Origin: an uncultured Methanosarcinales archaeon
Lineage (GTDB): Archaea > Nanobdellota > Nanobdellia > Woesearchaeales > GW2011-AR4
Direction: 5' to 3'
DNA length: 27,464 nt
NCBI GenBank assembly: GCA_964459665.1
Contig: CAYWNO010000002.1
Location: 1 to 27,464 of the forward strand
Made by a program: the position numbers and the translations under genes. Below are positions 13,987-27,464 of this stretch, in pieces. The stretch's first letter is position 1, and each line of letters opens with the position of its first letter. The notes below the pieces were generated by a model. It was not told the DNA's origin. It did not search any database and saw nothing but the letters and a program-made list of their open reading frames with translations.

Positions 13987-14022
13987 TTTAATTGCACTTC
14001 ATTTAGAATTGGATTATTCTTT

Positions 14023-14069
14023 AGAGAACTTTGAAAAATTCGCTTTTCAGGCAAATTTTTCAACTTATA
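14023..14069. repeat. Family-1 palindrome AGAGAACTTTGAAAAATTCGCTTTTCAGGCAAATTTTTCAACTTATA
   Basis: Its reverse complement matches 25439-25485 at 44/47 nt. Confidence 0.9.
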
Positions 14070-14079
14070 ATCTACATAA

Positions 14080-14493
14080 TTATTCATCATTGCTTTTTTT
14101 CTTCTTGCCTGATTTTAGCTTCTTGGTAAGCCCAATCTTCTCCTTGCATTTCTGGCATTCAAAAATATAGGACGGCACGCCTTCAAAATTTTTTCTCTCA
14201 TATTTGGATGTGGTTTTTCCATCATTTCCGCAGTGCGGGCATTTGTATTCAACATTAATGGTGAGGCTGCTTTCAACATCTTCATTTTTCTCCTCGTAAC
14301 TGCAGCTTTTGCATACATAAATCGGGGATTTTTTATCAGGCTTTCCGCTTTTGGAAGATGGCTTTCTTAGCGCATCCTTGCCGCATTTTGGGCATTCTTT
14401 GCGAAGAACCCATGCCATAGCCCTGCCTGAACCTATTGTCCTGTTCGTGAAGTACACGCAATCTTCCATGCTAGTTGGCTTCTTTAATTCCAT
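14080..14493 (-). CDS. Basic Zn-ribbon protein with four CxxC pairs
   Basis: CPKC, CKSC, CPHC and CQKC in 137 aa; Lys-rich tail. Confidence 0.85.
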   Translation of the reverse strand: MELKKPTSMEDCVYFTNRTIGSGRAMAWVLRKECPKCGKDALRKPSSKSGKPDKKSPIYVCKSCSYEEKNEDVESSLTINVEYKCPHCGNDGKTTSKYERKNFEGVPSYIFECQKCKEKIGLTKKLKSGKKKKSNDE

Positions 14494-15169
14494 TTTCGTC
14501 TATCCCACTTTCTTTTTTCCATATACCAACCGCTTCGTCATAAGTCAGGCTTTTTATTTTATCTTCGCTTAATCCCCCTTCTTTTTTAAATTGCTGCCTG
14601 TATATTTCAAGTGTTACATTCTCCGGGCAAAAATAATCTATTATATTTGAGTCCTTACTGGCATCTTTTGATATCTGGTAAAAAGTTGCATTGAGAAACA
14701 AGGCGTTTTTCTCCGATAAGCCTGCGAGCTTTGATTCCTTAGGATACTTGCCGACGAACTCTATTAGCAAACCAACCGCTTCAAATCCTTTTAAGGCTGA
14801 CTGGTTTCTTAGGTGCGCCGACTCCAATATGAGCGGCCTTAATTTGCACCCAAAGCCTTTTTTTGTGGTTCCTGCATCTCCATACTTCTGGCTTTGTATG
14901 TAAATTTTTTCAGCTTCAAGGTTAAGCTCCCTGTAGCCAATGGCATAATCAAACTGCTCCTGTCCGGATCTTAATTTAGCAGACTTCAGGCGCGACAAGT
15001 CACCTAGCATCTGCTCAATATCCTTTATGTTTTTAGGGTAGATTTCTGAGCTTGAATTATACTTTGAGTCCAGGCCATCAATCTGCTTCATCCCGTAATC
15101 AAAGTCTTTTGCCTGAGCGCATCCTGCAATAAGCAGCAATATGGCAATTAAAAAATTTTTCCTCTCCAT
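14471..15169 (-). CDS. Putative lipoprotein / secreted hypothetical protein
   Basis: MERKNFLIAILLLIAGC lipobox-like N-terminus; TTTATAAA about 32 nt upstream. Confidence 0.75.
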   Translation of the reverse strand: MERKNFLIAILLLIAGCAQAKDFDYGMKQIDGLDSKYNSSSEIYPKNIKDIEQMLGDLSRLKSAKLRSGQEQFDYAIGYRELNLEAEKIYIQSQKYGDAGTTKKGFGCKLRPLILESAHLRNQSALKGFEAVGLLIEFVGKYPKESKLAGLSEKNALFLNATFYQISKDASKDSNIIDYFCPENVTLEIYRQQFKKEGGLSEDKIKSLTYDEAVGIWKKESGIDENGIKEAN

Positions 15170-15269
15170 TTTTGCCCAATAAACAAAGAATTTTTAGCCA
15201 TTTATAAATCTTATGAGGGCTTGTATGTATTAAGCTAAAGGGAAAGCCGGCATTTAGATGCCTATTATA

Positions 15270-15356
15270 TATAGAGGACTTTGAATAACCCCCTGTATTT
15301 ATAAAGTAAATGCAGTTTATTTATAAATGGAATAGGGTTATTCAAAACTCTCTATA
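15270..15356. mobile_element. 87-bp MITE-like element, TATA-bounded, ~22-bp imperfect TIRs
   Basis: Left end TATAGAGGACTTTGAATAACCC, right end GGGTTATTCAAAACTCTCTATA; 86/87 identical to the reverse complement of 19871-19957. Confidence 0.8.
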
Positions 15357-15376
15357 GCTTAATACATACGAGGGCT

Positions 15377-15409
15377 TTGAAAAATTCGCCTGAAAAGCGA
15401 ATTTTTCAA
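15377..15409. repeat. Family-1 palindrome TTGAAAAATTCGCCTGAAAAGCGAATTTTTCAA
   Basis: Same core as 17434-17466; contains the TGA stop of the MNT-HEPN gene. Confidence 0.9.
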
Positions 15410-16248
15410 CTATGCTCAATAATCTTTCTCATCCTGTGCACGAAGTCTTCTGCAATCTTGTAGCGCCTGTCGAATTCCTCGCCCTTGATTTCGACAATTT
15501 CGCGATGCGTAACCATCTTCATCAGCTTGTAGAAATCCCTCATTATCACAACGTACTTGTGCTCAAGCATTCTGTGCCTCACGAGCTTTTGCTCCATGAG
15601 ATCTGCTACATGCTCCGGCGTCGGAGGAATCTCTCCTATCTTCATCAATGCGGCATGCGCCGCATCTATCACTGCCCAGTACAGGTCAATTACTCCCTGA
15701 AGCAGGTGCCATTTTGAATTATGCAGCGTATTGGGCGCCCTTGCATAGTAGGTCCATATGCTCTCCTGCGTTGGCCTTACTCTGCCTCTCTTAAGAAGCG
15801 CCTGCATCGGATCAAAAAACCCGGAATCGATCAAGGCTACCCCGTCCCGAAGAAGGTTTATTGCTATAGGGTCGCCGTTTCTCATGTATTCCCAAAACGA
15901 AGTGAACCTCATAGTTGTTATGTGCAGTTTAGTGGAAACCCTTACAATGGATTTTTGGACAATCAGCCTGTATGCCTCGACTAATTCAGGAGATATGCTC
16001 ATCATAATATCATCTATGATGATAAGAATGTCTATATCCCCTCCCGCTCCCTTGGTTCTTCTTGCAGTCGAGCCGAATATTACAACTGCCCTTATGAATC
16101 CGCCAAGCTCTTTATAGATTTCATTCGCAAACCTATATGAGACTTCAATATCCTCTTTGTAATACCTTTCAAGATTTGGATGCTCTTTTTTAGGAATGTC
16201 GAATTTCATGGAAAAAATCAGCTCTTTTGGAGTTGATTTTTTCCCCAT
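15406..16248 (-). CDS. Minimal nucleotidyltransferase (MNT) fused to a HEPN-like domain
   Basis: FGSTARR...GDIDILIIIDD Pol-beta-type motif; helical C-terminal domain (AAHAALM...FYKLMKMVTH). Start at 16248 or 16209. Confidence 0.8.
   Translation of the reverse strand: MGKKSTPKELIFSMKFDIPKKEHPNLERYYKEDIEVSYRFANEIYKELGGFIRAVVIFGSTARRTKGAGGDIDILIIIDDIMMSISPELVEAYRLIVQKSIVRVSTKLHITTMRFTSFWEYMRNGDPIAINLLRDGVALIDSGFFDPMQALLKRGRVRPTQESIWTYYARAPNTLHNSKWHLLQGVIDLYWAVIDAAHAALMKIGEIPPTPEHVADLMEQKLVRHRMLEHKYVVIMRDFYKLMKMVTHREIVEIKGEEFDRRYKIAEDFVHRMRKIIEHS
16211..16243. repeat. Family-2 short palindrome GAAAAAATCAGCTC-TTTTG-GAGTTGATTTTTTC
   Basis: Arms match those of 25347-25383 and the 16.3/25.7 kb elements. 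Confidence 0.75.
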
Positions 16249-16305
16249 CTTTAAAATGTTTTGTTGTTGTTCGGGAATGATGACACAAATGTTTAAAAGC
16301 AACTA

Positions 16306-16411
16306 AAGAGAACTTTGAAAAAATCAATGTTTTTAGTCGAACGCGTGCGAGCGAACCCGATTCGCTCGCATGTCCCAAAATTGATTTTTCAGCGAATTTT
16401 TCAAACTTCTC
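16306..16411. repeat. Composite element: family-1/MITE-type ends around the family-2 60-bp core
   Basis: Left end AGAGAACTTTGAAAAAATCAAT; 16330-16389 identical to 25739-25798; right end AGCGAATTTTTCAAACTTCTCT as at 25464-25485. Confidence 0.88.
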
Positions 16412-16452
16412 TTAAACATAAAATTATAAACACAACAAAAAGACTTTTTAGC

Positions 16453-17289
16453 ATGCTCCAGCAATTACAGCAGGTTTTTCATTCAATAACCAAATCCCTC
16501 GAAGTGTTTTATGTAATCGAAGGGGTAAAGCCCTGCGCAAGAATACTTTTTCCAGAGGATGAGCTAAAAAAAGTTACCGATTTCCTGTCTGAAAAAAGCG
16601 TCCATGCATTTTTTTCTGACTTCAAGGTTGCAAAGCAGAATGCGCAAAGCGAATTCTATTCCGATAAATCAATTAAAATTCCAAAAAATGCACCGCAAAA
16701 AGGGCATTTTTTGGCGTATTTATCAAAAAACAGAGATATTGCGCAGAAAGCAAAGCTTGCAGAGCAAAAAAATAACCACAAGGAATTGGGATTATTGCTG
16801 GGCTATCCGGAATGCTGCTGTAATTTTTTTGCCGATAATTTTGACGATAAAAATACGGATTTGACCTTAAAAGTTTTGGAGAATTCTAAGGGATATGAAT
16901 TTTCGTTTTACAACAACATAGGGGCGAGGCATTTTGATGTATCTTTGCTGAGCCATTTTCCGCACAGCTTTGGCTGCAGGCCTTCCATTAAGACAGCAGA
17001 ATCCAACCTGAAGATACTTTCAGAAAACTCTTTGCCATTGGCGGAAATTTTTCCCAAGATACTAAAATCTGTTTTGGTTTATACAACCGATGAAGGAATA
17101 TTCCTGTTGAAGAACTGCGAAAAGATTGGCGAAGAGATAGCGTACAATGAAGTATTGACAACGACTAAAAACAAGCTGTATTTTCTGCTTTCGTCAAACA
17201 GGAAATTAAGGATTGAAAGCAAGAAAAGCTTTTTTGTGGACGATATAAACATAAAAGGCAGAAGATATGGAATTTGCATATTTAATTGA
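16453..17289 (+). CDS. DUF483-like hypothetical protein
   Basis: ELGLLLGYPECCCNFF and SLLSHFPHSFGC motifs recalled as DUF483-like. ATG at 16453; the frame stays open upstream through the repeat to 16315. Confidence 0.65.
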   Translation: MLQQLQQVFHSITKSLEVFYVIEGVKPCARILFPEDELKKVTDFLSEKSVHAFFSDFKVAKQNAQSEFYSDKSIKIPKNAPQKGHFLAYLSKNRDIAQKAKLAEQKNNHKELGLLLGYPECCCNFFADNFDDKNTDLTLKVLENSKGYEFSFYNNIGARHFDVSLLSHFPHSFGCRPSIKTAESNLKILSENSLPLAEIFPKILKSVLVYTTDEGIFLLKNCEKIGEEIAYNEVLTTTKNKLYFLLSSNRKLRIESKKSFFVDDINIKGRRYGICIFN

Positions 17290-17300
17290 ATCTGCTCATT

Positions 17301-17429
17301 CCACTGGTGTGTTCACCAGTGGCGAAAATATCGAATTAACACACCAGTTACATTCGTGAGCCAAGAACCGCCTGAATGTACTTGTAACTTTCCTCATGCC
17401 GCCCATCTATTGATGGGCGGTTCTTGACT
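17301..17429. other. Structured GC-richer intergenic segment between convergent genes (ncRNA or IS-end remnant)
   Basis: CCACTGGTG-TGTT-CACCAGTGG hairpin; CCGCCCATC-TATT-GATGGGCGG hairpin; AGCCAAGAACCGCC (17359-17372) is complementary to 17416-17429. Confidence 0.5.
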
Positions 17430-17432
17430 GAT

Positions 17433-17473
17433 GTTGAAAAATTCGCCTGAAAAGCGAATTTTTCAAAGTTCTC
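17433..17473. repeat. Family-1 palindrome overlapping the trmB stop codon
   Basis: GTTGAAAAATTCGCCTGAAAAGCGAATTTTTCAAAGTTCTC. Confidence 0.9.
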
Positions 17474-18272
17474 ATTGAGGCTTTTGCTGGCTGCTCTCGA
17501 ACAGGATATTGACTGCGCTTACGAAGAAAGGGCTGCTTATCCATATTGCAACCTCGTAATCCGGAACCACGCTTTGGTTTGATACTATAAAAATCATTTC
17601 TTTTCCGTCAACGCTTGCGAACCTTGTGCTCGGGTTGCATTCAATATACTCTACATTCTGGAGCTTTTTGATGACTGCCTTGTTGTAAGGCGAGTAAAGC
17701 CTTGCTTTTACCCCTTTTTTTGCAAATGCCTGCGCAAATCCTCTTAGCAGCTTGGCGCTCCTTTCAACCTGCTCATCGGTTGTTGCAAAAACAAGATTTG
17801 ATTTGGCATTTGAAAGCATCTTCTTTAAGTGCTTGTTGATGCTTGTCCTTCCTATTATTGATTTGGAAATGCTGGAAATATCTACCTGCTGAACTCCGCT
17901 CTTGTGCAGCAATTCTAGCTCTCTGAATTCATCAGTTTCCTTTATGCCTTCGAACTGGATGGAGAGCACATCGGCTTCTTGATTTATGTTATCCTTGACT
18001 CTTTCCAGAATTGCATCCGGATTTACGGCAAGATATTTTATTGGCTTTCCTATGCTCATTATTATGAATCCTTTCTTTTCGAGCGACTCAAGAACATCGT
18101 AGCACCTGCTTCTTGGCACCCCGGAAATATCAGACAGCTCGCCTGCGGAAGCAATCCCTCTGCTTAGCAAAGAAGCCCATATTTTTACTTCATAAATATT
18201 CAGCTTGAAATGTTTTTTCAGCTCGGATAAAAAATGGTTTTTTAAAAACTGGTTATTATTTTGTTCTTTCAT
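17472..18272 (-). CDS. trmB: TrmB-family transcriptional regulator / chromatin protein
   Basis: LNIYEVKIWASLL...AGELSDISGVPRSRCYDVLESLEKKGF...GKPIKYLAVNP winged HTH; GGAGA RBS upstream of ATG 18272. Confidence 0.9.
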   Translation of the reverse strand: MKEQNNNQFLKNHFLSELKKHFKLNIYEVKIWASLLSRGIASAGELSDISGVPRSRCYDVLESLEKKGFIIMSIGKPIKYLAVNPDAILERVKDNINQEADVLSIQFEGIKETDEFRELELLHKSGVQQVDISSISKSIIGRTSINKHLKKMLSNAKSNLVFATTDEQVERSAKLLRGFAQAFAKKGVKARLYSPYNKAVIKKLQNVEYIECNPSTRFASVDGKEMIFIVSNQSVVPDYEVAIWISSPFFVSAVNILFESSQQKPQ

Positions 18273-18455
18273 GAGGCTTATCTCCTTTTGGCTTTTGGAA
18301 ACAAATTTCATCTTTGAGATGAAATTTGTTTTATCAAGCTTCGCTATCTGCGGCAGCTTTCCGAGTTTTTTTAAATGGCTGCGCTAACAGTAAAAACAGG
18401 CAGCGAAGCAATCTGAAAAATCTTTCATCCTTGTGGATGAAAGATTTTTATTTAG

Positions 18456-18494
18456 GTATTTAAACTTTTCTATATAACACCACTTTAAAGTGGT
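18456..18494 (-). promoter_or_regulatory. BRE-TATA (GAAAAGTTTAAATAC, 18470-18456) plus upstream 16-bp perfect palindrome ACCACTTTAAAGTGGT (18479-18494)
   Basis: Matches the archaeal BRE/TATA consensus and points toward trmB. Confidence 0.6.
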
Positions 18495-18508
18495 TATCTA
18501 ATATTCAC

Positions 18509-18554
18509 TTGAAAAATTCGCCTGAAAAGCGAATAATTGATTTTTTCAAAGTTT
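18509..18554. repeat. Family-1/family-2 hybrid palindrome next to the stop of 18556-19659
   Basis: TTGAAAAATTCGCCTGAAAAGCGAAT followed by AATTGATTTTTTCAAAGTTT. Confidence 0.8.
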
Positions 18555-18555
18555 T

Positions 18556-19659
18556 TTATTTTACCGGGCTCTTCTTCCTGAATATATAAGCAATCAGGAA
18601 AACTCCCGCTATCACCGCAATTATTTCGGCTATTGCTATTCCTGCAACAAACGCATTGCCGCTTAGAAATCCTTCCTGAGTAACGATTGCGTCTTCAGCA
18701 GGCGTTGAGTCGGTGTTTGTCTGCGTTGCAGATGCATTGTTTTTTCCGATCTTAGGCATTATGACTTCAACGCCTGAGCTTTCTTCAGAAGGATTTATAG
18801 GGCTTGCAGGCGGCTTTGCGCAATTGTTGACAATCAGCATAGCTGTGTTTTCTGTTGATTTGCGGTCGTTGTTGTATAATGCTTTTAATGTAATCAGGTA
18901 GTTGCCGGCTTCCGCATCCTTTGGCACATTGATGGCATATGTTTTTGAAAATTTGCTTTCAGGCTCGTTTGGCCTGGAAAATATCGTCCCGATTTTGTCG
19001 TTTATGCTTATTCCCAAATCACGGTTTGATACCTGCACAGACACTCCATCCTCGTCAAGATTGCCTATGTTCAGTATGCTTGTGCTAATCTGGACATTTT
19101 TCCTGTTGCATGAAACCTGCTCAGGAGTAAGTGACATTTTAACAATCTTTAGCAGGTGATTGTCATTTATTACTTCGAGCTTTAGCTTCATCTCTGAGGT
19201 TTCGCTTGTCCCATCTTCGTCCTGGCCTTCTGCCGTTATAACCACATTGTAAGTTTCTTCCCTTACCTGCAATGGAATGTCAAACTTCAAAAATGATTTT
19301 CTTTCGGTGTTGGCACTCAAGTCGAACCTGTCAGATTCTATATCGACGTCTTCTCCACCGTCTATTCCTTCAATGGTTGTCTTGACAGTTATATCCCTTA
19401 TTTTTAAGTCCTGCGACCTTGTAAAGTTATTTCTCACTTCGACCCTGAATTCAACCGTATGGTCGGGCCTTGCCTCCTCGCTTATAGTATCGCCGTTGCT
19501 TAAATTCCTCAGTGTCTTGCTGCTTACCTTTACGTCGACATTGGATATAACAAGATTCTTAGCGCTTGCAGCAGATGCCTGCAGAGAATTATTCATCAGT
19601 ATAACTATGACAAATACAATTAAGCCCACCATTAATGCCTTTATCTTGATTTTAATCAC
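18556..19659 (-). CDS. Secreted, C-terminally membrane-anchored S-layer-like protein with Ig/CARDB-type beta domains
   Basis: N-terminal hydrophobic signal, beta-rich domains (EAGNYLITLKALY), Pro/Ser/Thr linker, C-terminal TM helix followed by RKK. Confidence 0.75.
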   Translation of the reverse strand: MIKIKIKALMVGLIVFVIVILMNNSLQASAASAKNLVISNVDVKVSSKTLRNLSNGDTISEEARPDHTVEFRVEVRNNFTRSQDLKIRDITVKTTIEGIDGGEDVDIESDRFDLSANTERKSFLKFDIPLQVREETYNVVITAEGQDEDGTSETSEMKLKLEVINDNHLLKIVKMSLTPEQVSCNRKNVQISTSILNIGNLDEDGVSVQVSNRDLGISINDKIGTIFSRPNEPESKFSKTYAINVPKDAEAGNYLITLKALYNNDRKSTENTAMLIVNNCAKPPASPINPSEESSGVEVIMPKIGKNNASATQTNTDSTPAEDAIVTQEGFLSGNAFVAGIAIAEIIAVIAGVFLIAYIFRKKSPVK

Positions 19660-19683
19660 CTTAAGCCTGATAAAAGTCTTTAG

Positions 19684-19698
19684 TATTTAAATTTTTCG
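19684..19698 (-). promoter_or_regulatory. BRE-TATA promoter CGAAAAATTTAAATA
   Basis: Near-consensus archaeal promoter 25 nt upstream of the GTG at 19659. Confidence 0.7.
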
Positions 19699-19765
19699 TT
19701 ATTTAGTAATAGTAACATTAATGGGATTATTGTCAAACAGACCTAAAATAGTATTGTTTGTATAT

Positions 19766-19874
19766 TATAGAGAACTTTGAATAACCCTCTGAAAATAACA
19801 ATTTATTATTTGCGCATCGTCGAGACTGAAAATCAAAACAATTCAAAAAATGGGGTTATTCAAAGTCCTCTATA
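19766..19874. mobile_element. 109-bp MITE-like element with the same TIRs but a different interior
   Basis: TATAGAGAACTTTGAATAACCC...GGGGTTATTCAAAGTCCTCTATA; shares TATA 19871-19874 with the next element. Confidence 0.75.
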
Positions 19875-19957
19875 GAGAGTTTTGAATAACCCTATTCCAT
19901 TTATAAATAAACTGCATTTACTTTATAAATACAGGGAGTTATTCAAAGTCCTCTATA
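19871..19957. mobile_element. 87-bp MITE-like element (inverted copy of 15270-15356)
   Basis: One mismatch in 87 nt. Confidence 0.8.
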
Positions 19958-20252
19958 TGTCATTTGCTTATTACGAACGGACAACAATTGTCTAATTATT
20001 TTTGTCCGTGAGTATAGTTCATCTTTTGCAAAGCATACCGACTAATTTTTTGTAACTTCTTAGTCATTTGTGCATATTTTCGCAGCCTTTGCTTCTCATT
20101 TTTGTCCGTGGCGTTGAATTTCTTTATCTCATCAAAAAGTGCAGAAATCTTGGCTAATTATTAAAGTGTAAACTAATAATCAAATTAAACATTGGCGCAT
20201 GTGAACCGAAACAATTAAATACCTTTAATATTATTAAATATTATTTAATATT

Positions 20253-20405
20253 ATGAAAAGCAAAGAAGCTTTTGTAAGGTACATACGAAAGACGGGGACA
20301 AGCCTTGGCATAAACATACCTCTTGAAGTAGTGGAGATTCTTGGTATCGGCGAAAATGACATGGTGAGGGTTACAGTTGAAAAAATCAGGAAAAAATCCA
20401 AATAA
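20253..20405 (+). CDS. AbrB/MazE/SpoVT-family DNA-binding protein (50 aa; absent from the ORF track)
   Basis: MKSKEAFVRYIRKTGTSLGINIPLEVVEILGIGENDMVRVTVEKIRKKSK fits the RKxGxSLxIxIPxE...LGIxExDxVxV pattern; CGAAACAATTAAATA promoter upstream. Confidence 0.85.
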   Translation: MKSKEAFVRYIRKTGTSLGINIPLEVVEILGIGENDMVRVTVEKIRKKSK

Positions 20406-20454
20406 AGTGCAATGCCTTATGCTAAAAGGGCATTTTGATAGGTGCAAGACTCTA

Positions 20455-22032
20455 ATGCAAAAAAGCTTTTTTAAAACAAAAATTTTCATAGTGTTTCTTG
20501 CGGCAGTCTTATTATCGGCGCAGGCAAGCTCATTTACGGCAAACAGCAGCGAAAAATCATTTGATTTTGTAATTGCCTCCGGCAAAGGCGCTAACCTATC
20601 CTCTTCTAATTTCGAGGCTCATTACTCTATCGGAGACGGCTCAATTGGCGCTTTAAACTCTTCAGGCTTTAAGGCCCAGATGGGATTTTCAAGGGCTTTG
20701 CCCTATTTGGATGGCGAATCATGCAATGCGGGCATTGAATGCCTTGTAGGCAATTGCTGCAGCGGCATATGCCAAAGCGCTGCATGCGCAAGTAAAACAA
20801 CACCATCTTCCAGCGCAGCCGCTTCCGCATCCACAGGGAGCGTTAGCAGCGCGGGCGGCGGAAGCGCTCTTTTGAATCCAAGCTTTAGCCTGGACAAATC
20901 CGTATTGAAATTTGTTTTATTGAGCGGAGAATCTTCCGGAGAAATGCTTGAAATAGAAAATAACGGCGATGTCAGGCTAACATTTAATGTAAGCGTGGAA
21001 GGAATTGAAGATTTAGTGATAATAAATGAGCAATCATTCACGCTAAAGCCAAATGAAAGCAAAATGATAAGGTTAGACGCATTCGCTCCTGAAAACCACG
21101 CTCCGGGAACATATGCCGGCAGAATCTCATTTGACGCAGGCTTTGTTAGGAAAATCATAAACGTCATTATAGACATCAAGCAGAGGCAAGCATTATTCGA
21201 CATAAAGGTTGTGCCAAAAAAAACCACGATAAGCCCGGATGAAAACGCAGAAGCGGACATAATCCTCTACAACCTTGGCACTTTAAAGCCTGTTGACGTG
21301 ATTGTGTTCTACTCCTTAAGGGATCTTGACGGCAACGACTTAGCTTATGGAGAGGAAACTGTTGCGGTCAGGGAACAAACGCTGCTTAACAGGAAATTAA
21401 GGCTGCCTGAAAACATAAAACCCGCAAATTACCTCTTTTATTCGAGGCTGAGCTATAGCAACCAGACTGCAGTCAGCAGCAGCCTTCTAACTGTGATTCG
21501 AAGAGAATCTAAGGCATCAGAGCCTAAGGCAACGCAAAAATCAATCAATCAGATTCCGATTTATTTATCATTTATTCTGCTTGCCGCATTAGCGATTGCA
21601 GCAGGGCTAACCGCATTTTATCTCAAAAGAAATCAGCAGATTACAGTTAAAGTCCCAAAAGAAAGGTCTCAGGAAACGCAGGAAAAAGAGATTCAGATAG
21701 TTTTAGAAGACGAGAATGAAGTTGGCAAGATTATAGAAACAATCAGTTTCCTGCCAAAACAAAAGCCCGGGCGGACAGCAAAAAGAGTGCCAGAAGGGAA
21801 AGACAAAACAAGAAAGCTTTTGAGCCAAATCAAGCATTGGAAAAAACAGGGCTATGATACCTCGCTGTTAGAGCTGGAAATCAAAGCCCTGAAAAACACG
21901 CAATTAACAAATGAGACACAAAAGATAAAAGATTGGAAGAGAAAAGGCTACAATACCCTTATGCTGGAAGAGGAATTAAGGAGATTTAGAATAGAAAAAA
22001 ATAGAAAAAGATTTAAAGGGCTAATCAAATAA
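20455..22032 (+). CDS. Secreted/membrane surface protein: Cys-rich motif, Ig-like domains, TM helix, cytoplasmic tail
   Basis: Signal MQKSFFKTKIFIVFLAAVLLSAQA; CNAGIECLVGNCCSGIC; Ser/Ala linker; PGTYAGRI; TM LSFILLAALAIAAGLTAFYL; two WKxxGY repeats. Confidence 0.75.
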   Translation: MQKSFFKTKIFIVFLAAVLLSAQASSFTANSSEKSFDFVIASGKGANLSSSNFEAHYSIGDGSIGALNSSGFKAQMGFSRALPYLDGESCNAGIECLVGNCCSGICQSAACASKTTPSSSAAASASTGSVSSAGGGSALLNPSFSLDKSVLKFVLLSGESSGEMLEIENNGDVRLTFNVSVEGIEDLVIINEQSFTLKPNESKMIRLDAFAPENHAPGTYAGRISFDAGFVRKIINVIIDIKQRQALFDIKVVPKKTTISPDENAEADIILYNLGTLKPVDVIVFYSLRDLDGNDLAYGEETVAVREQTLLNRKLRLPENIKPANYLFYSRLSYSNQTAVSSSLLTVIRRESKASEPKATQKSINQIPIYLSFILLAALAIAAGLTAFYLKRNQQITVKVPKERSQETQEKEIQIVLEDENEVGKIIETISFLPKQKPGRTAKRVPEGKDKTRKLLSQIKHWKKQGYDTSLLELEIKALKNTQLTNETQKIKDWKRKGYNTLMLEEELRRFRIEKNRKRFKGLIK

Positions 22033-22049
22033 ATCGAAGGTGAGGGCTA

Positions 22050-23660
22050 ATGAATATAGAAGAGCTGAAAAAAGATTTTGATGTTTTTAGCAAGGGAATA
22101 GAAAGGCTCGAGGAGCTCAAAGCGGAATTTGAGAAAATTGATGTTTCCGGGCGCGAAAAAGAGGCTGATGAAATAAGGCCGATGCTAAAAAATGTCTCGG
22201 CCATACCCCAGCTTGAAATTAAAATAGCCGGCTTGAGGGATGCCGTCAATGGGAAGGATAAAAACACGCATAAGAAGCCAATGGCGGGATTAAAAGAGCT
22301 TATTCTCAAAAAAAGACATTCGCATCCTAAACCGCAAATCACTGGCAAAGATCTGGAATACATACATGAAATCCCGCTTTTGGAAAAGCAGATAGCTGAA
22401 ATAAAAGAATTGGGCAAGCTGAAATTAAAGGAAGGCATTGACAAGTCAGAGGAAAGGCTCAGAAAGAAACTCGAAGACGAATTTGACAGGAAAAAATCCG
22501 CATTTCTTGAAAGGTATGATTTGGATTACAAAAACAAGATAAAAGAGATTGAATCAAAAAACAGCGGGATTCTTAAAGACAAGGAATTTCATATCAGGGC
22601 AAAATTGAGGCAGGAATTTGAAGCCAAGGAAAGGCTGATGCGGGCTGAATTGTCGGATGAGCTTCAAAATCAGATGAGGCATTTTAGTGGGAAAGTTACT
22701 GCCGCCGAGTTAGAGAATAAAAACCTTGAATATTTAAAAATAAGGGAAGGAGCTATCAGAAATGAAATATTTTCAGAGTTGGAAAAAAAACTGGAAAGCG
22801 AAAAAGCCGATTACATCAAAAAGCGCGAGCATGAGCTAAAGGAGGAATTTGGGAGAAGGCTGGAGCAGAAAGAAGCAGAGAGCCGCAAATACATCAAGGA
22901 AAAAGAAAGCGCAATCAAGCAGGAAGCGATGAATGAACTTGAAAAGGGAAAGGACATCTTAAGGAGAAAATACGAATTGGAAATAAGCGGCGCTCTAAAA
23001 AAACTGGAAAGCGAAAAAGCCGATTACATCAAAAAGCGCGAGCATGAGCTAAAGGAGGAATTGGGCAGAAAGCTTGCGCAGAAAGAGGCAGAGAGCAATA
23101 AGCACATCAGGGAAAAAGAAAGCGCAATCAAGCAGGAAGCGATGGCTGATCTTGAGAAGTCAAAGGATATATTAAGGAAAAAATATGAACTGGAAATCAG
23201 CAGAGAGATAAAAGAATCTGAAAGCGAAAAAGCTGACTACATCAAAAAGCGCGAGCATGAGCTAAAGGAGGAATTTGGGAGAAGATTAGCCCAGAGAGAG
23301 GCAGAGGGCTACGAATATCTGAAGGAAAAAGAAAGCTCAATCAAGCAGGAAGCGATGAATGAACTTGAAAAGGGAAAACGCCTCTTAAGGGAAAAATACG
23401 AATTGCAAATAAGCAGCGAGCTAAAAGAACTTGAAAGAGAAATGGAAAATGAAAAATCTTCCTACATCAAAAAGCGCGAGCATGAGCTAAAGGAGGAATT
23501 TGGGAGAAGGCTGGAGCAGAAAGAAGCAGAGAGCCGCAAATACATCAAGGAAAAAGAAAGCGCAATCAAGCAGGAAGCGATGGCTGATCTTGAGAAGGAA
23601 AAACGCATCTTTAAGGAAGACGTAAAAGATTCAATCAAGCATTTATTGGAAAAGGAGTAA
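22050..23660 (+). CDS. Lys/Glu-rich coiled-coil protein with four ~71-aa tandem repeats
   Basis: GAAGGTGAGG RBS; repeat units start at 22785, 22998, 23211 and 23436. Confidence 0.85.
   Translation: MNIEELKKDFDVFSKGIERLEELKAEFEKIDVSGREKEADEIRPMLKNVSAIPQLEIKIAGLRDAVNGKDKNTHKKPMAGLKELILKKRHSHPKPQITGKDLEYIHEIPLLEKQIAEIKELGKLKLKEGIDKSEERLRKKLEDEFDRKKSAFLERYDLDYKNKIKEIESKNSGILKDKEFHIRAKLRQEFEAKERLMRAELSDELQNQMRHFSGKVTAAELENKNLEYLKIREGAIRNEIFSELEKKLESEKADYIKKREHELKEEFGRRLEQKEAESRKYIKEKESAIKQEAMNELEKGKDILRRKYELEISGALKKLESEKADYIKKREHELKEELGRKLAQKEAESNKHIREKESAIKQEAMADLEKSKDILRKKYELEISREIKESESEKADYIKKREHELKEEFGRRLAQREAEGYEYLKEKESSIKQEAMNELEKGKRLLREKYELQISSELKELEREMENEKSSYIKKREHELKEEFGRRLEQKEAESRKYIKEKESAIKQEAMADLEKEKRIFKEDVKDSIKHLLEKE
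22785..23657 (+). repeat. Intragenic tandem repeat, 213/213/225-bp units plus a partial fourth
   Basis: 22812-22931 and 23463-23582 are identical over 120 bp. Confidence 0.92.
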
Positions 23661-23676
23661 TTATTTTTGGGATTTT

Positions 23677-25338
23677 GTGAAGCAGCCAAAATATTATAAA
23701 AAGCGGTTGAATAGGCATTTAAATAGCTATATCAGGAAAAATATAGGCATTGGATATTCTCTTAAATCAATTGAAAAAGCCCTCATAGTTTATGGCTATG
23801 AGCGCGGCTTTGTTAACAATCTGATGAGGACATATAAATTAAATAGCGCCATAGCAAAAAATATCCCTTTGCTCCTCATTATTATTGCATTAGCGTCAAT
23901 ATTGTTGCTAATCAAGCCCGCAACAGTCGGGCGCATTGTAGCGGAAAAATCATTCAATTTTACTGACAAGGTAGGGTTAAGCGCCAATGAAAGCGGCGCT
24001 TATGCATGGAATTTAGAGAATGAAGGGCAATTAAAATCAGTTAAGATTAATGGAAGGATAAAAAACAGCGGGCTCGTAAAAATCTATCTGGAGCATGAAA
24101 ACAGCACATACCTGATTTTTGACAGCAGGAAACTGGAGATTAGCGGTTTAGAGAAATTTACGGCCCTTGCAATCAAAGAAAAAGAAGATGAAAAAGAAGA
24201 TAAGGGCAAAGAGAATAATAAGACAAAAAAAGAGGATATAAAAGAAAAAAAAGAGGATATAAACGATACAGAGATTATAAATGAAACCATAAACCAAACT
24301 GCTGAAAATGAAACAAAAGACAATGAAAGCGCCATAAACGAGACAGGACAGATAAATGAAACTATGGCGAATAATACGGCATATAACGAAACCATAAACC
24401 AAACTGCTGAAAATGAAACAAACGAAAGTATAAATAAATCAATAAAAATAAGCCTCGAGTACAACAAAGGAACCCCATACGATGAAGATGATGACGGTGC
24501 AGATTCTATTACGAATGCAATAGACTTTAGCGTTGCCAACACTTCATTTAGCTGGGCGTATGATGATTCTAGCCTTTGCTCAAGATGGGAAATTTTTTCT
24601 GAGGATGAAGCAAAAAGCACAATAGTGTGCTACGGAAGCGAGCAGTGCTGCAATTTAGTCGGCTTGTCTCCTGCAAGGGAAAAATGGGATGGGCCGCTTT
24701 ATCTTTCTTATGGCCAGTATGGGGCATCTTTGAGCAATATAATCTTAGCGCAGGTTCTTTATGTAAGCTATAACCTAAGCTTGGATACCCCTTTTTCTGA
24801 GATTTATTATTCTGAATGGAAAAACCTTACCGCCAGATTCTATCAGGAATCTGTAAGCTTTGAAAAAATATGCATCGAAACCTGCATTTTGCCGAATTTG
24901 AATTATACTTCCTATAAGATTAAATTTGAAATATACAACTCCAGCCTGTTTCTAGACAGCATTAGCTACGAAATATTGCCCAATAAAACAATAAACCACC
25001 CGCCTATTTTGCAAAAAAATATTTCCGACATATCTTTTTTTAATCATGAGAGCTACACATTAAACTTAAGCGATTATTTCTATGACGAAGAAAATGACGC
25101 TTTGGCTTACAGCTTCTATAACAACAACGAGATAGGCATAAGGATAACCAGCCAAACTGCTAATTTAACTGCCCCTGCCAACTATACGGGCATTGAATAC
25201 ATGTTTATTCTGGCAAACGATTCTTCATCTACAGCCCAATCAAACATCTTCAGGGTTGAAATAAAAGAAGAGAAGAAAGAAAACAAGAATACATCCCTAA
25301 AATCCTTGAGGCAGATGATTCAATCAATATTAAAATAA
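23677..25338 (+). CDS. Type II membrane surface glycoprotein-like protein
   Basis: Basic N-terminal domain, TM LLLIIIALASILLLI, acidic NET-rich linker (35-bp direct repeat at 24283/24388), Cys-containing beta domain, many N-x-S/T sequons. Confidence 0.75.
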   Translation: MKQPKYYKKRLNRHLNSYIRKNIGIGYSLKSIEKALIVYGYERGFVNNLMRTYKLNSAIAKNIPLLLIIIALASILLLIKPATVGRIVAEKSFNFTDKVGLSANESGAYAWNLENEGQLKSVKINGRIKNSGLVKIYLEHENSTYLIFDSRKLEISGLEKFTALAIKEKEDEKEDKGKENNKTKKEDIKEKKEDINDTEIINETINQTAENETKDNESAINETGQINETMANNTAYNETINQTAENETNESINKSIKISLEYNKGTPYDEDDDGADSITNAIDFSVANTSFSWAYDDSSLCSRWEIFSEDEAKSTIVCYGSEQCCNLVGLSPAREKWDGPLYLSYGQYGASLSNIILAQVLYVSYNLSLDTPFSEIYYSEWKNLTARFYQESVSFEKICIETCILPNLNYTSYKIKFEIYNSSLFLDSISYEILPNKTINHPPILQKNISDISFFNHESYTLNLSDYFYDEENDALAYSFYNNNEIGIRITSQTANLTAPANYTGIEYMFILANDSSSTAQSNIFRVEIKEEKKENKNTSLKSLRQMIQSILK

Positions 25339-25346
25339 TAATTATT

Positions 25347-25383
25347 TGAAAAAATCAATTTTTTCGCAAAATTGATTTTTTCA
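25347..25383. repeat. Family-2 'empty' palindrome with a perfect 16-bp stem
   Basis: TGAAAAAATCAATTTT-TTCGC-AAAATTGATTTTTTCA. Confidence 0.85.
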
Positions 25384-25438
25384 CTGATTTATCGCTTAAT
25401 AGGCTTATCTTCTTTAAAGCGCAAGCTTTGTAGACGGA

Positions 25439-25485
25439 TATAAGTTGAAAAATTCGCTTGAAAAGCGAATTTTTCAAACTTCTCT
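25439..25485. repeat. Family-1 palindrome
   Basis: Inverted near-copy of 14023-14069. Confidence 0.9.
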
Positions 25486-25545
25486 ATTCTTTTTATAATT
25501 TCAAAATAGAAATATTTAAATATTACTATTAAAATAATATTATTT

Positions 25546-25716
25546 ATGGCGAAAATCTCAAGCACCGGAAAGCAGTTTACTATTACAGTTCCAAAAGAAT
25601 TGATGAAAATAATGGGATGGGATGAGCATACTGAAATTATAATCAGCAAGTATCCTCAGAAAAGCGTAGTGTACATAGAAAAGATTGGAGATGAAAAGCA
25701 AAATGCCAAAAAATAA
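25546..25716 (+). CDS. AbrB/MazE/SpoVT-family DNA-binding protein (56 aa; absent from the ORF track)
   Basis: MAKISSTGKQFTITVPKELMKIMGWDEHTEIIISKYPQKSVVYIEKIGDEKQNAKK fits the Q-x-x-I-T-V-P-K-E...GW pattern. Confidence 0.8.
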   Translation: MAKISSTGKQFTITVPKELMKIMGWDEHTEIIISKYPQKSVVYIEKIGDEKQNAKK

Positions 25717-27464
25717 CGAGGACTTTGGAAAAATCAATTTTTTAGTCGAACGCGTGCGAGCGAACCCGATTCGCTCGCATGTCCCAAAATTGATTTTTTC
25801 ACATTTTATTCTTGCATTAGTGCTGGCAAGCTCCGCCTTTGGAGCGCCTAACTCAATGAGCGTGCAAGGCAGGCTTACGAATCCTTCCGGGGTAATACAG
25901 ACAGGAGCTTTTAATTTTACTTTCAGGATTTATGACAATTTCACAGGCGGAAATATGCTCTATGAGACGAACATATCATCAGCTACCGATTCAAGAGGCA
26001 TTTATGACCTTGTCCTTAAGGATGTAAATGTTACATTTGAGAACCAGCTTTACCTTGCCGTCAAAATCAACAATGATTCCGAGATGGAGCCAAGAGCCAA
26101 CCTAACCAGCGTGCCTTACAGCTTTAGGGCCAATATCTCCGAAGACTTAAATAGGAATAAAAGCTATACAGTAGCAGGCTTGAATACAACTGGAAATTTA
26201 AGCGTGGGCGATAAAATAGTCTTTAGCCTGGGCCAGCTTATTGACAATTTGGTTAGCGGATGGGTAAAGCTAACAGGTGCGCTTAACATAACAGGCGGAT
26301 TATTTGTCGGAGGGGGCTTGAATGTATCCGGGGATTTTGGGGTTAATCAAAATCTAAATATATCCTCTGCAACGGGAGATTTGCGCACATCCGGCTCTAT
26401 AAACGCCTCAGGCACGATACAGGGCGCAACCTTATCCGACGGAAGCGCGACAATCACAGGAGGCGCTGTAAGGGCAAGCCAAGTACATGTTGGCGGAGGC
26501 TTTTCAACGGGCGGCTTAACAATCCAAAGCGACGGAAACATATTGACTCAGGGCGATGTGCTGTTTTCCGGAAACGTAACCATCCTTAATGTGACTTTAT
26601 TGAGCGTTAACGGAAGCGTAATTCCGGGAGTTGATAATTCCTTTGACATAGGCAATTCAAGCTTCAGGTGGAGAAATGCAAACTTCTCGGGAACGGTAGG
26701 CGCCGCAACTCTGGACGGGCTTAATGTCCTTGTTAACGGAAACAGCGTGCAGGTTGAATCAAGCGCATTCAAAACAAGCAATTTTACCTCATCTTATGAT
26801 GCAAGAAGCGAAAGGTTTTCCTATCAAAACCTAACAAGGATAGGAAGCATAGACATCAACTCAAGCGGAAGCCTTAACATATCCGGAAACATTACATTTA
26901 TCCAGCTAAAAAACTGCAACACAATAGACACCGACTCGAATGGAGTTCTTACCTGCGGAATTGACGCATCCAGCGACTCTGTTGGCTTTAATTTGGCTAA
27001 CTATTCTGCCGAGTACGCTTCAACAGGATTTAAGATTTCCAATGGAACTGCCTTGCCTTTCAGCAATTTCTTGCTTTCCAATGTGAGCAACGATACTTTA
27101 AGGATAAGCGGCAACGCTTCAGTCTCTTTGTGGAATGCAAGCGGAAGCAATATTTATCCAAGGGATATAAGCGGCAACGTCGGGATTGGGACGACGGGAC
27201 CTCAGAACAGATTAGAGGTAATTGGAGCGACTACTTTGGCTGGCGGGGTAAATGCCTCTTCATTAAACGTTACAGGCTTCAGCATTACCGATGATAGCTT
27301 GGTAACACTTGCAGATGGAAGCAAGAAAAAAATAAAAGACATTATTGCTGGAGAAGAAGTGCTGACTTTGGATGAAAAAACCGGCAAGCTTGTTGCGAGG
27401 AAAGTAAATGCTTTGCTTGACCACGGCATTAAGCCGATTTATGAGATGGCTACAGAGGATGGAA
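25703..27464 (+). CDS. Large secreted fibre/adhesin-like protein with a Hint domain, 3'-truncated (absent from the ORF track)
   Basis: Hand translation finds no stop over 587 codons. Signal FILALVLASSAFG-A; QGRLTN...FRIYD...LTSVPYSFRA domain; Gly/Asn/Ser beta repeats; GNVGIGTTGPQNRLEVIG; SITDDSLVTLADG...GEEVLTLD...GIKPIYEMATEDG from 27281. Start codon uncertain. Confidence 0.85.
   Translation, partial: MPKNNEDFGKINFLVERVRANPIRSHVPKLIFSHFILALVLASSAFGAPNSMSVQGRLTNPSGVIQTGAFNFTFRIYDNFTGGNMLYETNISSATDSRGIYDLVLKDVNVTFENQLYLAVKINNDSEMEPRANLTSVPYSFRANISEDLNRNKSYTVAGLNTTGNLSVGDKIVFSLGQLIDNLVSGWVKLTGALNITGGLFVGGGLNVSGDFGVNQNLNISSATGDLRTSGSINASGTIQGATLSDGSATITGGAVRASQVHVGGGFSTGGLTIQSDGNILTQGDVLFSGNVTILNVTLLSVNGSVIPGVDNSFDIGNSSFRWRNANFSGTVGAATLDGLNVLVNGNSVQVESSAFKTSNFTSSYDARSERFSYQNLTRIGSIDINSSGSLNISGNITFIQLKNCNTIDTDSNGVLTCGIDASSDSVGFNLANYSAEYASTGFKISNGTALPFSNFLLSNVSNDTLRISGNASVSLWNASGSNIYPRDISGNVGIGTTGPQNRLEVIGATTLAGGVNASSLNVTGFSITDDSLVTLADGSKKKIKDIIAGEEVLTLDEKTGKLVARKVNALLDHGIKPIYEMATEDG
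25723..25800. repeat. Family-2 'filled' palindromic element (78 bp), within the reading frame of the next gene
   Basis: Contains TGCGAGCGAA-CCCGA-TTCGCTCGCA; 60 bp identical to 16330-16389. Confidence 0.9.

What the first reader, a model, noticed from the sequence alone, without database searches (positions are those of the whole stretch)
16211..25800. Palindromic element read in frame at protein N-termini (Rickettsia RPE-like behaviour in an archaeon)
Seen: the 78-bp element at 25723-25800 lies between ATG 25703 and the signal-peptide core, giving MPKNNEDFGKINFLVERVRANPIRSHVPKLIFSHFILALVLASSAFGA. Every start that keeps the whole hydrophobic core (25703, GTG 25754, TTG 25790) uses element sequence. 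The second copy (60 bp identical, 16330-16389) is open in the same frame into the DUF483-like gene (FLVERVRANPIRSHVPKLIF). A short version at 16211-16243 sits between two in-frame ATGs of MNT-HEPN (MGKKSTPKELIFSM). An 'empty' version exists at 25347-25383. In all three genic cases the element's TGA falls out of frame. Established: RPEs add peptides to Rickettsia proteins. Inference: a nested palindrome system that targets gene starts and either donates peptide or controls initiation through a hairpin.
Basis: partly seen in the sequence, partly recalled or inferred. Interest (0 to 1): 0.8.

Follow-up and report, generated by a model that had tools for sequence, protein, structure and literature searches.

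The report
Mobile palindromic repeat inside signal peptide
The palindrome is one module of a family of tiny jumping DNA repeats (MITEs) that has multiplied in this groundwater Woesearchaeota archaeon; most copies lie between genes, but one has landed in frame in the signal-peptide codons of a surface-protein gene, as happens in Rickettsia and other bacteria.

Summary
The sequence observations are real. The 60-nt identity, the hairpins and the open frames are all there, but only one of the three "genic" cases is coding.

The element is an 85-nt module, and the genome holds 30 near-identical copies of it. It belongs to a modular MITE superfamily sharing the terminal repeat GAGRACTTTGAA. Two sister families, of 79-80 nt and 101 nt, carry 4-bp target duplications, mostly TATA, so they moved by real transposition.

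- **Copy 16307-16412:** an intergenic insertion between two divergent promoters. All orthologues of the downstream gene start at ATG 16453.
- **Palindrome 16210-16244:** it lies upstream of the conserved start of the nucleotidyltransferase gene (ATG 16209-16207).
- **Copy 25718-25802:** it abuts the hydrophobic core of a signal peptide. Homologues have short ordinary signal peptides, so this is most likely an 84-nt in-frame insertion.

Genome-wide there is no frame bias (about 6 of 26 adjacent genes are in phase) and no preference for gene starts. A sister element adds exactly 35 residues to a glycosyltransferase that eight homologues lack.

So RPE-like behaviour is real here, but as an occasional by-product of transposition, not a system aimed at N-termini. 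The scan has already reported similar in-frame repeats in other DPANN genomes. Interest is moderate.

The parts
25718..25802 (+). 85-nt 'C' module of the MITE. It comprises the left terminal repeat (GAGGACTTTGG), the A/T-rich outer hairpin and the GC-rich inner hairpin. Positions 25718-25801 (84 nt, 28 codons) are read in frame between MPKNN and the hydrophobic core HFILALVLASSAFGA.
   Evidence: The right junction to the gene is seen in independent Logan contigs.
25703..27463 (+). Surface-protein gene with a Hint module at the contig end. The candidate starts are ATG 25691, ATG 25703, GTG 25754 and TTG 25790.
25546..25716 (+). AbrB/MazE-like small gene. Its last codons overlap ATG 25703, and its stop lies just before the element.
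16307..16412 (+). 106-nt composite MITE copy. It comprises the left terminal repeat, the filled hairpin (C module, 16308-16392), half of the A hairpin and the right terminal repeat. It is intergenic, between two divergent promoters.
   Evidence: The syntenic spacer is 125-129 nt in five congeners and 237 nt here.
16453..17289 (+). DUF483-like gene. Its true start is ATG 16453, and a TATA-like box lies at about 16420-16431.
16210..16244 (-). 35-nt B-like palindrome directly upstream of the conserved start codon of the nucleotidyltransferase gene. It lies between the in-frame ATGs 16248-16246 and 16209-16207.
15406..16209 (-). Nucleotidyltransferase (MNT-like) gene. It is a conserved core gene of the genus and starts MKFDIPKK.
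25340..25486 (+). Composite MITE without the C insert. It comprises the empty B hairpin (25347-25383), an internal segment, the A hairpin (25444-25484) and the right terminal repeat.
15274..15352 (+). D1 MITE copy (79 nt) flanked by a TATA duplication. It has the same terminal repeat as the C module.
19770..19953 (+). D2 MITE (19770-19870, 101 nt) and D1 MITE (19875-19953) in tandem, sharing one TATA.
14022..14069 (.). A-type palindrome with the same termini, next to a gene end. Further copies lie at 15370-15410, 17433-17473 and 18508-18548.

Best explanation
The element is one module of a non-autonomous transposable repeat (a MITE) that has multiplied in this Candidatus Woesearchaeota (DPANN) genome.

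**The superfamily (shown).**
- All its families share the terminal inverted repeat GAGRACTTTGAA.
- Two families (D1, 79-80 nt; D2, 101 nt) carry 4-bp target-site duplications, mostly TATA.
- The A/T-rich 'B' hairpin and the 'A' hairpin are formed by a terminal repeat and an internal inverted copy of it.
- The 39-nt GC-rich 'C' hairpin is a secondary insert in the B loop, and this filled version then spread to about 30 sites.
- Copies are mostly intergenic.

**Why copies are intergenic (inferred).**
- The target is A/T-rich (TATA-like), and most insertions into genes are lost.
- Each orientation of the C module has one open frame. A copy next to a gene therefore extends that gene's ORF by chance about one time in three. 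This explains the case at 16.3 kb.

**The copy at 25718.**
- Shown: the copy abuts the hydrophobic core of a signal peptide.
- Inferred: the insertion fell inside the first codons of the gene. It added 84 nt (28 codons) with no stop, so the frame survived. The protein, if made from ATG 25703 or 25691, would have a long, net positive n-region.
- Inferred: the hairpin may also slow or modulate initiation.

Whether the protein is still exported is untested.
For: **Copy number and identity.**
- 30 copies at 89-100% identity in G000; none of 42 congeners carries the module as such.

**Shared termini.**
- The motif GAGRACTTTGAAWAAYC occurs 147 times in G000 and 0-14 times in congeners.

**Transposition.**
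- 79 of 83 D1/D2 copies have identical 4-nt flanks.
- 17 of the 21 copies with a non-TATA flank carry the same 4-mer on both sides.

**Modularity and nesting.**
- About 44 empty B hairpins and 26 filled ones were counted.
- An alignment shows filled and empty versions of the same composite element.

**Intergenic habit.**
- About 14 of 121 copies lie inside ORFs, although roughly 86% of the genome is ORF.
- Spacer classes are hit in proportion to their length.

**No frame bias.**
- About 6 of 26 adjacent genes are in phase, and good ATGs follow the element in all cases but one.

**Empty orthologous sites.**
- The MNT/DUF483 spacer is 125-129 nt in five congeners and 237 nt here.

**Signal peptide.**
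- 15 congener homologues and 10 public proteins have 0-17 residues before the h-region. Here there are 34, of which 28 come from the element.

**Second clean in-frame case.**
- D2 plus its duplication is 105 nt, giving 35 residues in a GT2 enzyme that are absent from eight homologues.
Against: - No autonomous transposase with these terminal repeats was found. The DDE_Tnp_1 and DDE_3 genes of G000 and 30 congener DDE_Tnp_1 loci lack them.
- The C-bearing copies mostly lack a matching target duplication. Only 2 of 13 composites with both termini have identical flanks, and about half have no right terminal repeat. Their mode of spread may therefore differ from that of D1/D2.
- No duplication can be recognised at 25718, and no empty allele was seen. 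The pre-insertion sequence is therefore inferred, not observed.
- The left junction at 25718 is not covered by the public contigs.
- The insertion is recent (98.8% identical to the consensus), so an intact ORF does not show that the gene still works.
Confidence: 0.78

Rival explanations
1. One reading: a nested palindrome system that homes to gene starts. There it either donates an N-terminal peptide or controls initiation through its hairpin, as a selected function.
For: - Three copies or relatives lie at 5' ends in one window.
- The hairpin at 25718 would bury GTG 25754 and TTG 25790.
- The palindrome at 16210-16244 ends directly at the AUG.
- A C-like hairpin also lies just upstream of the ATG of a homologous surface gene in congener G019.
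Against: - The frame is random (about 6 of 26 in phase).
- Copies lie as often at gene ends, with a median of 12 nt to 3' ends and 53 nt to 5' ends.
- Orthologues place two of the three starts outside the element.
- Copies are species-specific and near-identical, which marks recent spread, not conserved regulation.
Confidence: 0.07
2. The palindromes are primarily host-functional sequences that were copied around the genome, for example bidirectional oligo-T terminators, protein-binding sites or small RNA genes. They are not selfish transposons.
For: - The hairpins are flanked by T5-T7 runs on both strands, and many abut stop codons.
- Similar hairpin modules occur in 32 of 43 genomes of the genus.
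Against: - Target duplications show transposition.
- There is no Rfam match.
- Presence and absence differ between congeners at syntenic sites.
- Copies occur inside coding sequences.
- Domestication of some copies as terminators is not excluded and is compatible with the main explanation.
Confidence: 0.1
3. The copy at 25718 destroyed the 5' end of the gene. The surface-protein gene would then be a fresh pseudogene (or now lack a signal peptide), and the open frame across the element would be luck.
For: - The insertion is young (98.8% identical to the consensus), so the ORF has had no time to decay.
- No target duplication is recognisable.
- The strong hairpin could block initiation.
Against: - Removing 25718-25801 leaves MPKNN followed by the h-region. 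This matches the short K/N-rich n-regions of homologues.
- The added segment keeps a net positive charge next to the h-region (read from the sequence).
- Only one frame in three is open, and it is the one used.
Confidence: 0.2
4. Integron-like cassette array, in which the palindromes are attC-type recombination sites spaced about 1 kb apart.
For: - A-type palindromes are spaced at 995-1346 nt through 14-18.5 kb.
- Their ends contain AAC...GTT.
- A nucleotidyltransferase gene of toxin-antitoxin type is present.
Against: - The genes between them point both ways.
- These are conserved syntenic core genes of the genus, with 39 and 33 of 42 congeners carrying them.
- The ends AGAGAAC/GTTCTCT do not fit RYYYAAC/GTTRRRY.
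- The elements are scattered over nearly all contigs and carry target duplications.
Confidence: 0.01

Closest known systems
Rickettsia palindromic elements (RPEs; Ogata et al. 2000, as reviewed in PMC10969869)
   Same: - Small palindromic repeats with one open frame.
- They can sit in frame inside protein-coding genes and add a peptide without breaking the gene.
- There are two good cases here: the signal peptide at 25718 and 35 residues in a GT2 enzyme.
   Different: - There is no sequence relation, and the host is archaeal.
- Here in-gene copies are the exception (about 5-10% of copies), whereas nearly half of the RPEs of three families lie in ORFs.
- The sister families here show clear terminal repeats and 4-bp target duplications.
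Prokaryotic MITEs, including the census that lists a Woesearchaea genome among the MITE-densest archaea (PMC11602168)
   Same: - Short size (49-240 nt), terminal inverted repeats and target duplications.
- Many near-identical copies with no coding capacity.
- Intergenic habit and taxon specificity.
   Different: - The structure is modular and nested: several internal modules sit behind the same termini.
- The TATA-like 4-bp target is unusual.
- The partner transposase was not identified.
- The C-bearing copies often lack one terminus and a duplication.
REP/BIME elements of bacteria (PMC3733652)
   Same: - Short palindromes, often just after stop codons.
- They are combined into composite arrays.
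   Different: - REPs carry GTAG or CGTC heads and depend on RAYT (Y1) transposases.
- These elements have different termini, and no IS200/IS605-type gene was found (OrfB_IS605 search negative; Y1 not searched).
In-frame palindromic repeats found earlier by this scan in other DPANN archaea (ProRS, SufS, UbiA, NMD3 and aEF-2 cases)
   Same: - The same kind of host (groundwater Woesearchaeota and relatives).
- The same behaviour: small palindromic repeats tolerated in frame inside genes and also present between genes.
   Different: - The sequences and genomes differ.
- This case concerns a signal peptide.
- It comes with a genome-wide census showing no frame or gene-start preference.

Membership tests
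MITE | Terminal inverted repeats | tested here: met
   GAGRACTTTGAA occurs at both ends of the D1, D2, A, B and composite elements. The copy at 25718 has only the left terminus.
MITE | Target-site duplication | tested here: met
   Met for D1/D2: 79 of 83 copies have identical 4-nt flanks, including matched non-TATA flanks. For C-bearing copies only 2 of 13 match, so this feature is inconclusive for that subfamily.
MITE | Small, non-coding, many near-identical copies | tested here: met
   Elements are 49-240 nt long. There are 30 C, 60 D1 and 31 D2 copies at 89-100% identity.
MITE | Autonomous partner element with the same termini | tested here: not met
   No DDE_Tnp_1 or DDE_3 locus in G000, and none of 30 congener DDE_Tnp_1 loci, carries these termini. 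The genome is an incomplete draft of 193 contigs, so absence is not shown.
Rickettsia palindromic elements (as a behaviour class) | Repeat inserted in frame in a protein-coding gene and absent from homologues | tested here: met
   GT2 gene on contig 47: a 35-residue gap in eight homologues. Surface protein: homologues lack the 28 residues.
Rickettsia palindromic elements (as a behaviour class) | High proportion of copies inside ORFs | tested here: not met
   About 14 of 121 copies overlap predicted ORFs, and several of these are chance ORF extensions.
Rickettsia palindromic elements (sequence family) | Sequence homology to RPE-1 to RPE-10 | not tested
   No RPE sequences were available to compare. 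The host and composition make homology unlikely (inference).
REP/RAYT system | GTAG/CGTC-headed 20-40 nt palindromes with a Y1 (RAYT) transposase | tested here: not met
   The termini differ. OrfB_IS605 is absent. A Y1 domain was not searched.
Integron attC sites | RYYYAAC...GTTRRRY core sites, an adjacent IntI and co-oriented cassettes | tested here: not met
   The ends are AGAGAAC/GTTCTCT. The genes between them point both ways and are conserved core genes. IntI was not searched.
Known RNA families (Rfam 15) | Match to a covariance model | tested here: not met
   No match above the gathering score in 13900-26000, nor in four congener loci.

The most novel reading that the evidence does not exclude
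In-frame landing of these repeats may be a recurrent and selected source of new peptide segments in DPANN archaea. On this reading the C module at 25718 has been co-opted. Either it serves as an extended, positively charged n-region, or it acts as an RNA hairpin switch that sets how much of a host-attachment surface protein is made. The multiple-of-three length of some families (101+4 nt; 84 nt) would be maintained because it lets copies survive inside genes.
Probability: 0.1. Interest if true: 0.65.

Novelty: new member of a known kind. Interest (0 to 1): 0.4.

Why it matters
- **Correct gene starts.** The result explains why this draft genome is so fragmented and why its ORFs grow false N-terminal extensions. 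Two gene starts in the window should be set downstream of the element.
- **Archaeal examples of a bacterial phenomenon.** It gives two clean archaeal examples, with empty homologues, of a mobile repeat being carried inside a protein. One sits in a signal peptide and one in a glycosyltransferase. Such cases are documented mostly for bacteria such as Rickettsia.
- **A possible wider habit.** Together with similar cases the scan found in other DPANN genomes, it suggests that small-genome archaea tolerate such insertions regularly. That would be a cheap route to new loops and tails in surface proteins.
- **A transposon that tends to land at promoters.** The TATA-like target means each insertion duplicates a possible archaeal promoter box, which is worth testing for effects on transcription.

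Tried and rejected
- **Integron attC array.** Rejected. Gene orientation is mixed, the genes are conserved syntenic core genes, the core sites do not fit, and copies are scattered across the genome.
- **Known RNA family.** No Rfam match.
- **Autonomous partner.** DDE_Tnp_1, DDE_3 and OrfB_IS605 were searched in G000, and DDE_Tnp_1 was searched across the genus. None has the terminal repeats. Terminal-repeat pairs 600-3500 nt apart with matching flanks were only neighbouring MITEs.
- **Empty-site allele for 25718.** An exact-flank scan of metagenome contigs found nothing. Logan contigs of three groundwater runs break at the repeat; they show the right junction only and no skipping joint.
- **Nearer relatives of the surface protein.** The best public hit is only 66% identical.
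- **Synteny of the AbrB-like gene.** It is not upstream of the homologues in congeners, so the pre-insertion junction cannot be reconstructed.
- **Giant ORF on contig 23.** It reads through a 110-nt composite near its C-terminus. Homologues diverge just there, and the length plus duplication is not a multiple of three, so this case stays open.
- **GT2 orthologues in five close congeners.** None found. The case was solved with the global protein search instead.


Full report
**What is in the window**

The window is the whole of contig 2 of a 1.56-Mb draft genome (193 contigs, 40% G+C). Titles of records that carry the conserved neighbouring gene name the group as Candidatus Woesearchaeota, which are DPANN archaea from groundwater. 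Three groundwater metagenome runs hold the stretch.

- 16330-16389 and 25739-25798 are identical over 60 nt.
- The element at 25.7 kb folds into a two-storey hairpin, with a 16-bp A/U-rich outer stem and a 13-bp G/C-rich inner stem. The free energy is -40.9 kcal/mol for 25700-25830, z -4.7.
- The frame from ATG 25703 runs through it into HFILALVLASSAFGA.

**What the element is**

The genome holds 30 copies of an 85-nt unit, 28 of them at 95% identity or more. The left end of the unit is GAGAACTTTGAA and the right end is TTTTTTCAC.

The same left end, and its inverted copy at the right end, bound several other repeat families:
- D1, 79-80 nt, 60 copies.
- D2, 101 nt, 31 copies.
- 49-nt 'A' palindromes.
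- 55-nt 'B' palindromes.
- Composites of 100-240 nt.

D1 and D2 are flanked by identical 4-nt words in 79 of 83 copies. The word is usually TATA. Of the 21 copies with another word on one side, 17 have the same word (AATA, TATT, TATC, TAGC) on both sides, so these are true target-site duplications.

An alignment of composites shows one architecture. It runs from the left terminus through a B hairpin and a variable middle with deletions to an A hairpin and the right terminus. The B loop is either 3-5 nt or filled by a 39-nt GC-rich hairpin. The window's 25340-25486 is the unfilled version of the same composite that is filled on contigs 156, 41 and 43. The 'nested palindrome' reading is therefore right.

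- The terminal motif occurs 147 times in this genome and 0-14 times in 42 congeners.
- None of the 42 congeners carries the C module as such.
- Congeners have their own multi-copy hairpin modules of similar build: 32 of 43 genomes match.
- No Rfam family matches.
- No transposase gene with these termini was found, so the partner element is unknown.

**Do the copies aim at gene starts, or at a reading frame?**

No, on both counts.

- **Location.** On a crude ORF map about 86% of the genome is coding, but only about 14 of 121 C, D1 and D2 copies lie in ORFs.
- **Spacer type.** The intergenic copies fall in 5'-5', tandem and 3'-3' spacers in proportion to spacer length. They are at least as close to gene ends as to gene starts.
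- **Frame.** The C module has one open frame per orientation. About 13 genes begin within about 150 nt downstream in each orientation, and three per orientation are in phase. That is at or below the one-third expected by chance.
- **Real starts.** In five of these six in-phase cases a convincing ATG follows the element. Examples are MKINKNN on contig 62, MKEFVML on contig 1 and MPPYKTF on contig 13.

**The three cases of the finding**

1. **16307-16412.** The DUF483-like gene has orthologues in 33 of 42 congeners, and nearly all align from residue 1 of the protein that starts at ATG 16453. The gene is divergent from the nucleotidyltransferase gene. The spacer between the two genes is 125-129 nt in five congeners and 237 nt here. 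The difference is the 106-nt element, which lies between the two conserved promoter regions. A TATA-like box remains about 25-30 nt before ATG 16453. The ORF extension through the element is a chance in-phase case.

2. **16210-16244.** The nucleotidyltransferase gene is 77-92% identical in its orthologues across the genus (36 of 42 congeners carry one), and every orthologue examined begins MKFDIPKK. That corresponds to ATG 16209-16207, with AAAAAGAGG a few bases upstream. In this genome the 35-nt palindrome replaces the segment that holds TTTATAAA in relatives. It folds to -16.6 kcal/mol, ending at the AUG. The upstream ATG 16248 follows a TTTTAAAG box directly, so it is probably not in the transcript (inference). 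The palindrome is best read as leader or promoter DNA, not as codons.

3. **25718-25802.** Here the h-region follows the element directly.
   - Homologues in 15 congeners and in 10 public proteins share the mature N-terminus (PN-S-x-x-x-QGKLT). They have ordinary signal peptides with 0-17 residues before the h-region.
   - This gene has 34 such residues, 28 of them encoded by 25718-25801.
   - Without the 84 nt the protein would begin MPKNN-HFILALVLASSAFGA (or MKSKMPKNN from ATG 25691). That matches relatives such as MGNKK... and MQAKNK....
   - The added segment is net positive (six K/R against three D/E, read from the sequence), so it may be tolerated in a signal peptide.
   - GTG 25754 and TTG 25790 lie inside stems, which leaves the upstream ATGs as the accessible starts (inference).
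   - Independent Logan contigs confirm the junction from the element into the gene (25773-26400, no differences). The left junction is not covered and no empty allele was seen.

   I put about 75% on a tolerated in-frame insertion and about 20% on a fresh knock-out. A misjoin at the left junction, which one search does not cover, takes the remainder.

**RPE-like behaviour elsewhere in the genome**

D2 plus its duplication is 105 nt. On contig 47 it sits inside a GT2 glycosyltransferase gene. Eight homologues (42-54% identical in the alignment) show a clean 35-residue gap exactly there, between conserved blocks.

Further candidates are:
- D2 near the end of a 177-residue ORF on contig 49.
- An 80-nt D1 variant in a small membrane-protein ORF on contig 82.
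- A 110-nt composite in the tail of a 1750-residue protein on contig 23, which stays unresolved.

**Comparison with what is known**

In-frame MITE fusions are described as 'not unusual' in bacteria, and RPEs are the extreme case (PMC10969869). A census of MITEs already lists a Woesearchaea genome among the densest in archaea (PMC11602168).

This scan has itself reported in-frame palindromic repeats in other DPANN genomes. I did not re-test those notes.

The present case is therefore a new member of a known kind. Its particular points are the signal-peptide position, the TATA-like target and the modular nesting.

**Verdict**

The element is a mobile repeat whose coding appearances are occasional by-products. 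One copy in this window is a real contribution to a protein N-terminus.

Noticed in passing
G000 contig 47, 742-1824 (locus L061); element at 1401-1501: A 101-nt D2 MITE plus its 4-nt duplication adds exactly 35 residues to a GT2 glycosyltransferase. Eight homologues lack them.
   Followed up: yes
window 15264-15357 and 19870-19963: Two D1 copies lie in opposite orientation 4.5 kb apart (94 nt, 97% complementary). They could mediate inversion of the segment between them.
   Followed up: no
window 15370-15410, 17433-17473, 14022-14069, 18508-18548: A-type palindromes with T-runs on both strands overlap or abut the stop codons of four genes. They may serve as terminators.
   Followed up: partly
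loci L052, L053, L059, L049, L057 (congeners G008, G013, G003, G046, G005): In five congeners the spacer between the nucleotidyltransferase and DUF483-like genes carries unrelated inserts that bring it to 521-889 nt (against 125-129 nt in others), at least one carrying an ATG-started reading frame. The spacer is an insertion hot spot.
   Followed up: partly
locus L032 (G019 contig 48), about 50 nt before the ATG of a homologous surface-protein gene: A hairpin-like module resembling the C insert lies between the stop of the upstream gene and the ATG of a homologue of the 25.7-kb gene. It too is open in frame. This is a second species with such a module at the 5' end of this gene family.
   Followed up: partly
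G000 contig 23, 12064-12173 (locus L062 5565-5674): A 110-nt composite with the C module is read through near the C-terminus of a 1750-residue ORF, and 56 more open codons follow it. Homologues diverge at this point, so the case is unresolved.
   Followed up: partly
many contig ends of G000 (for example contigs 32, 38, 41, 64 and 80, within about 50 nt of an end): Contigs often end in the D-type terminal repeat. The MITEs are therefore a main cause of the fragmented assembly, and true copy numbers are higher than counted.
   Followed up: no
window 22784-23667: Four tandem repeats of 213-233 nt (76-86% identical to the first copy) lie inside a 536-residue coiled-coil ORF (22050-23660) of the surface-protein locus.
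   Followed up: no
One intron has a stem resembling the A-type palindrome. I did not examine this.
   Followed up: no
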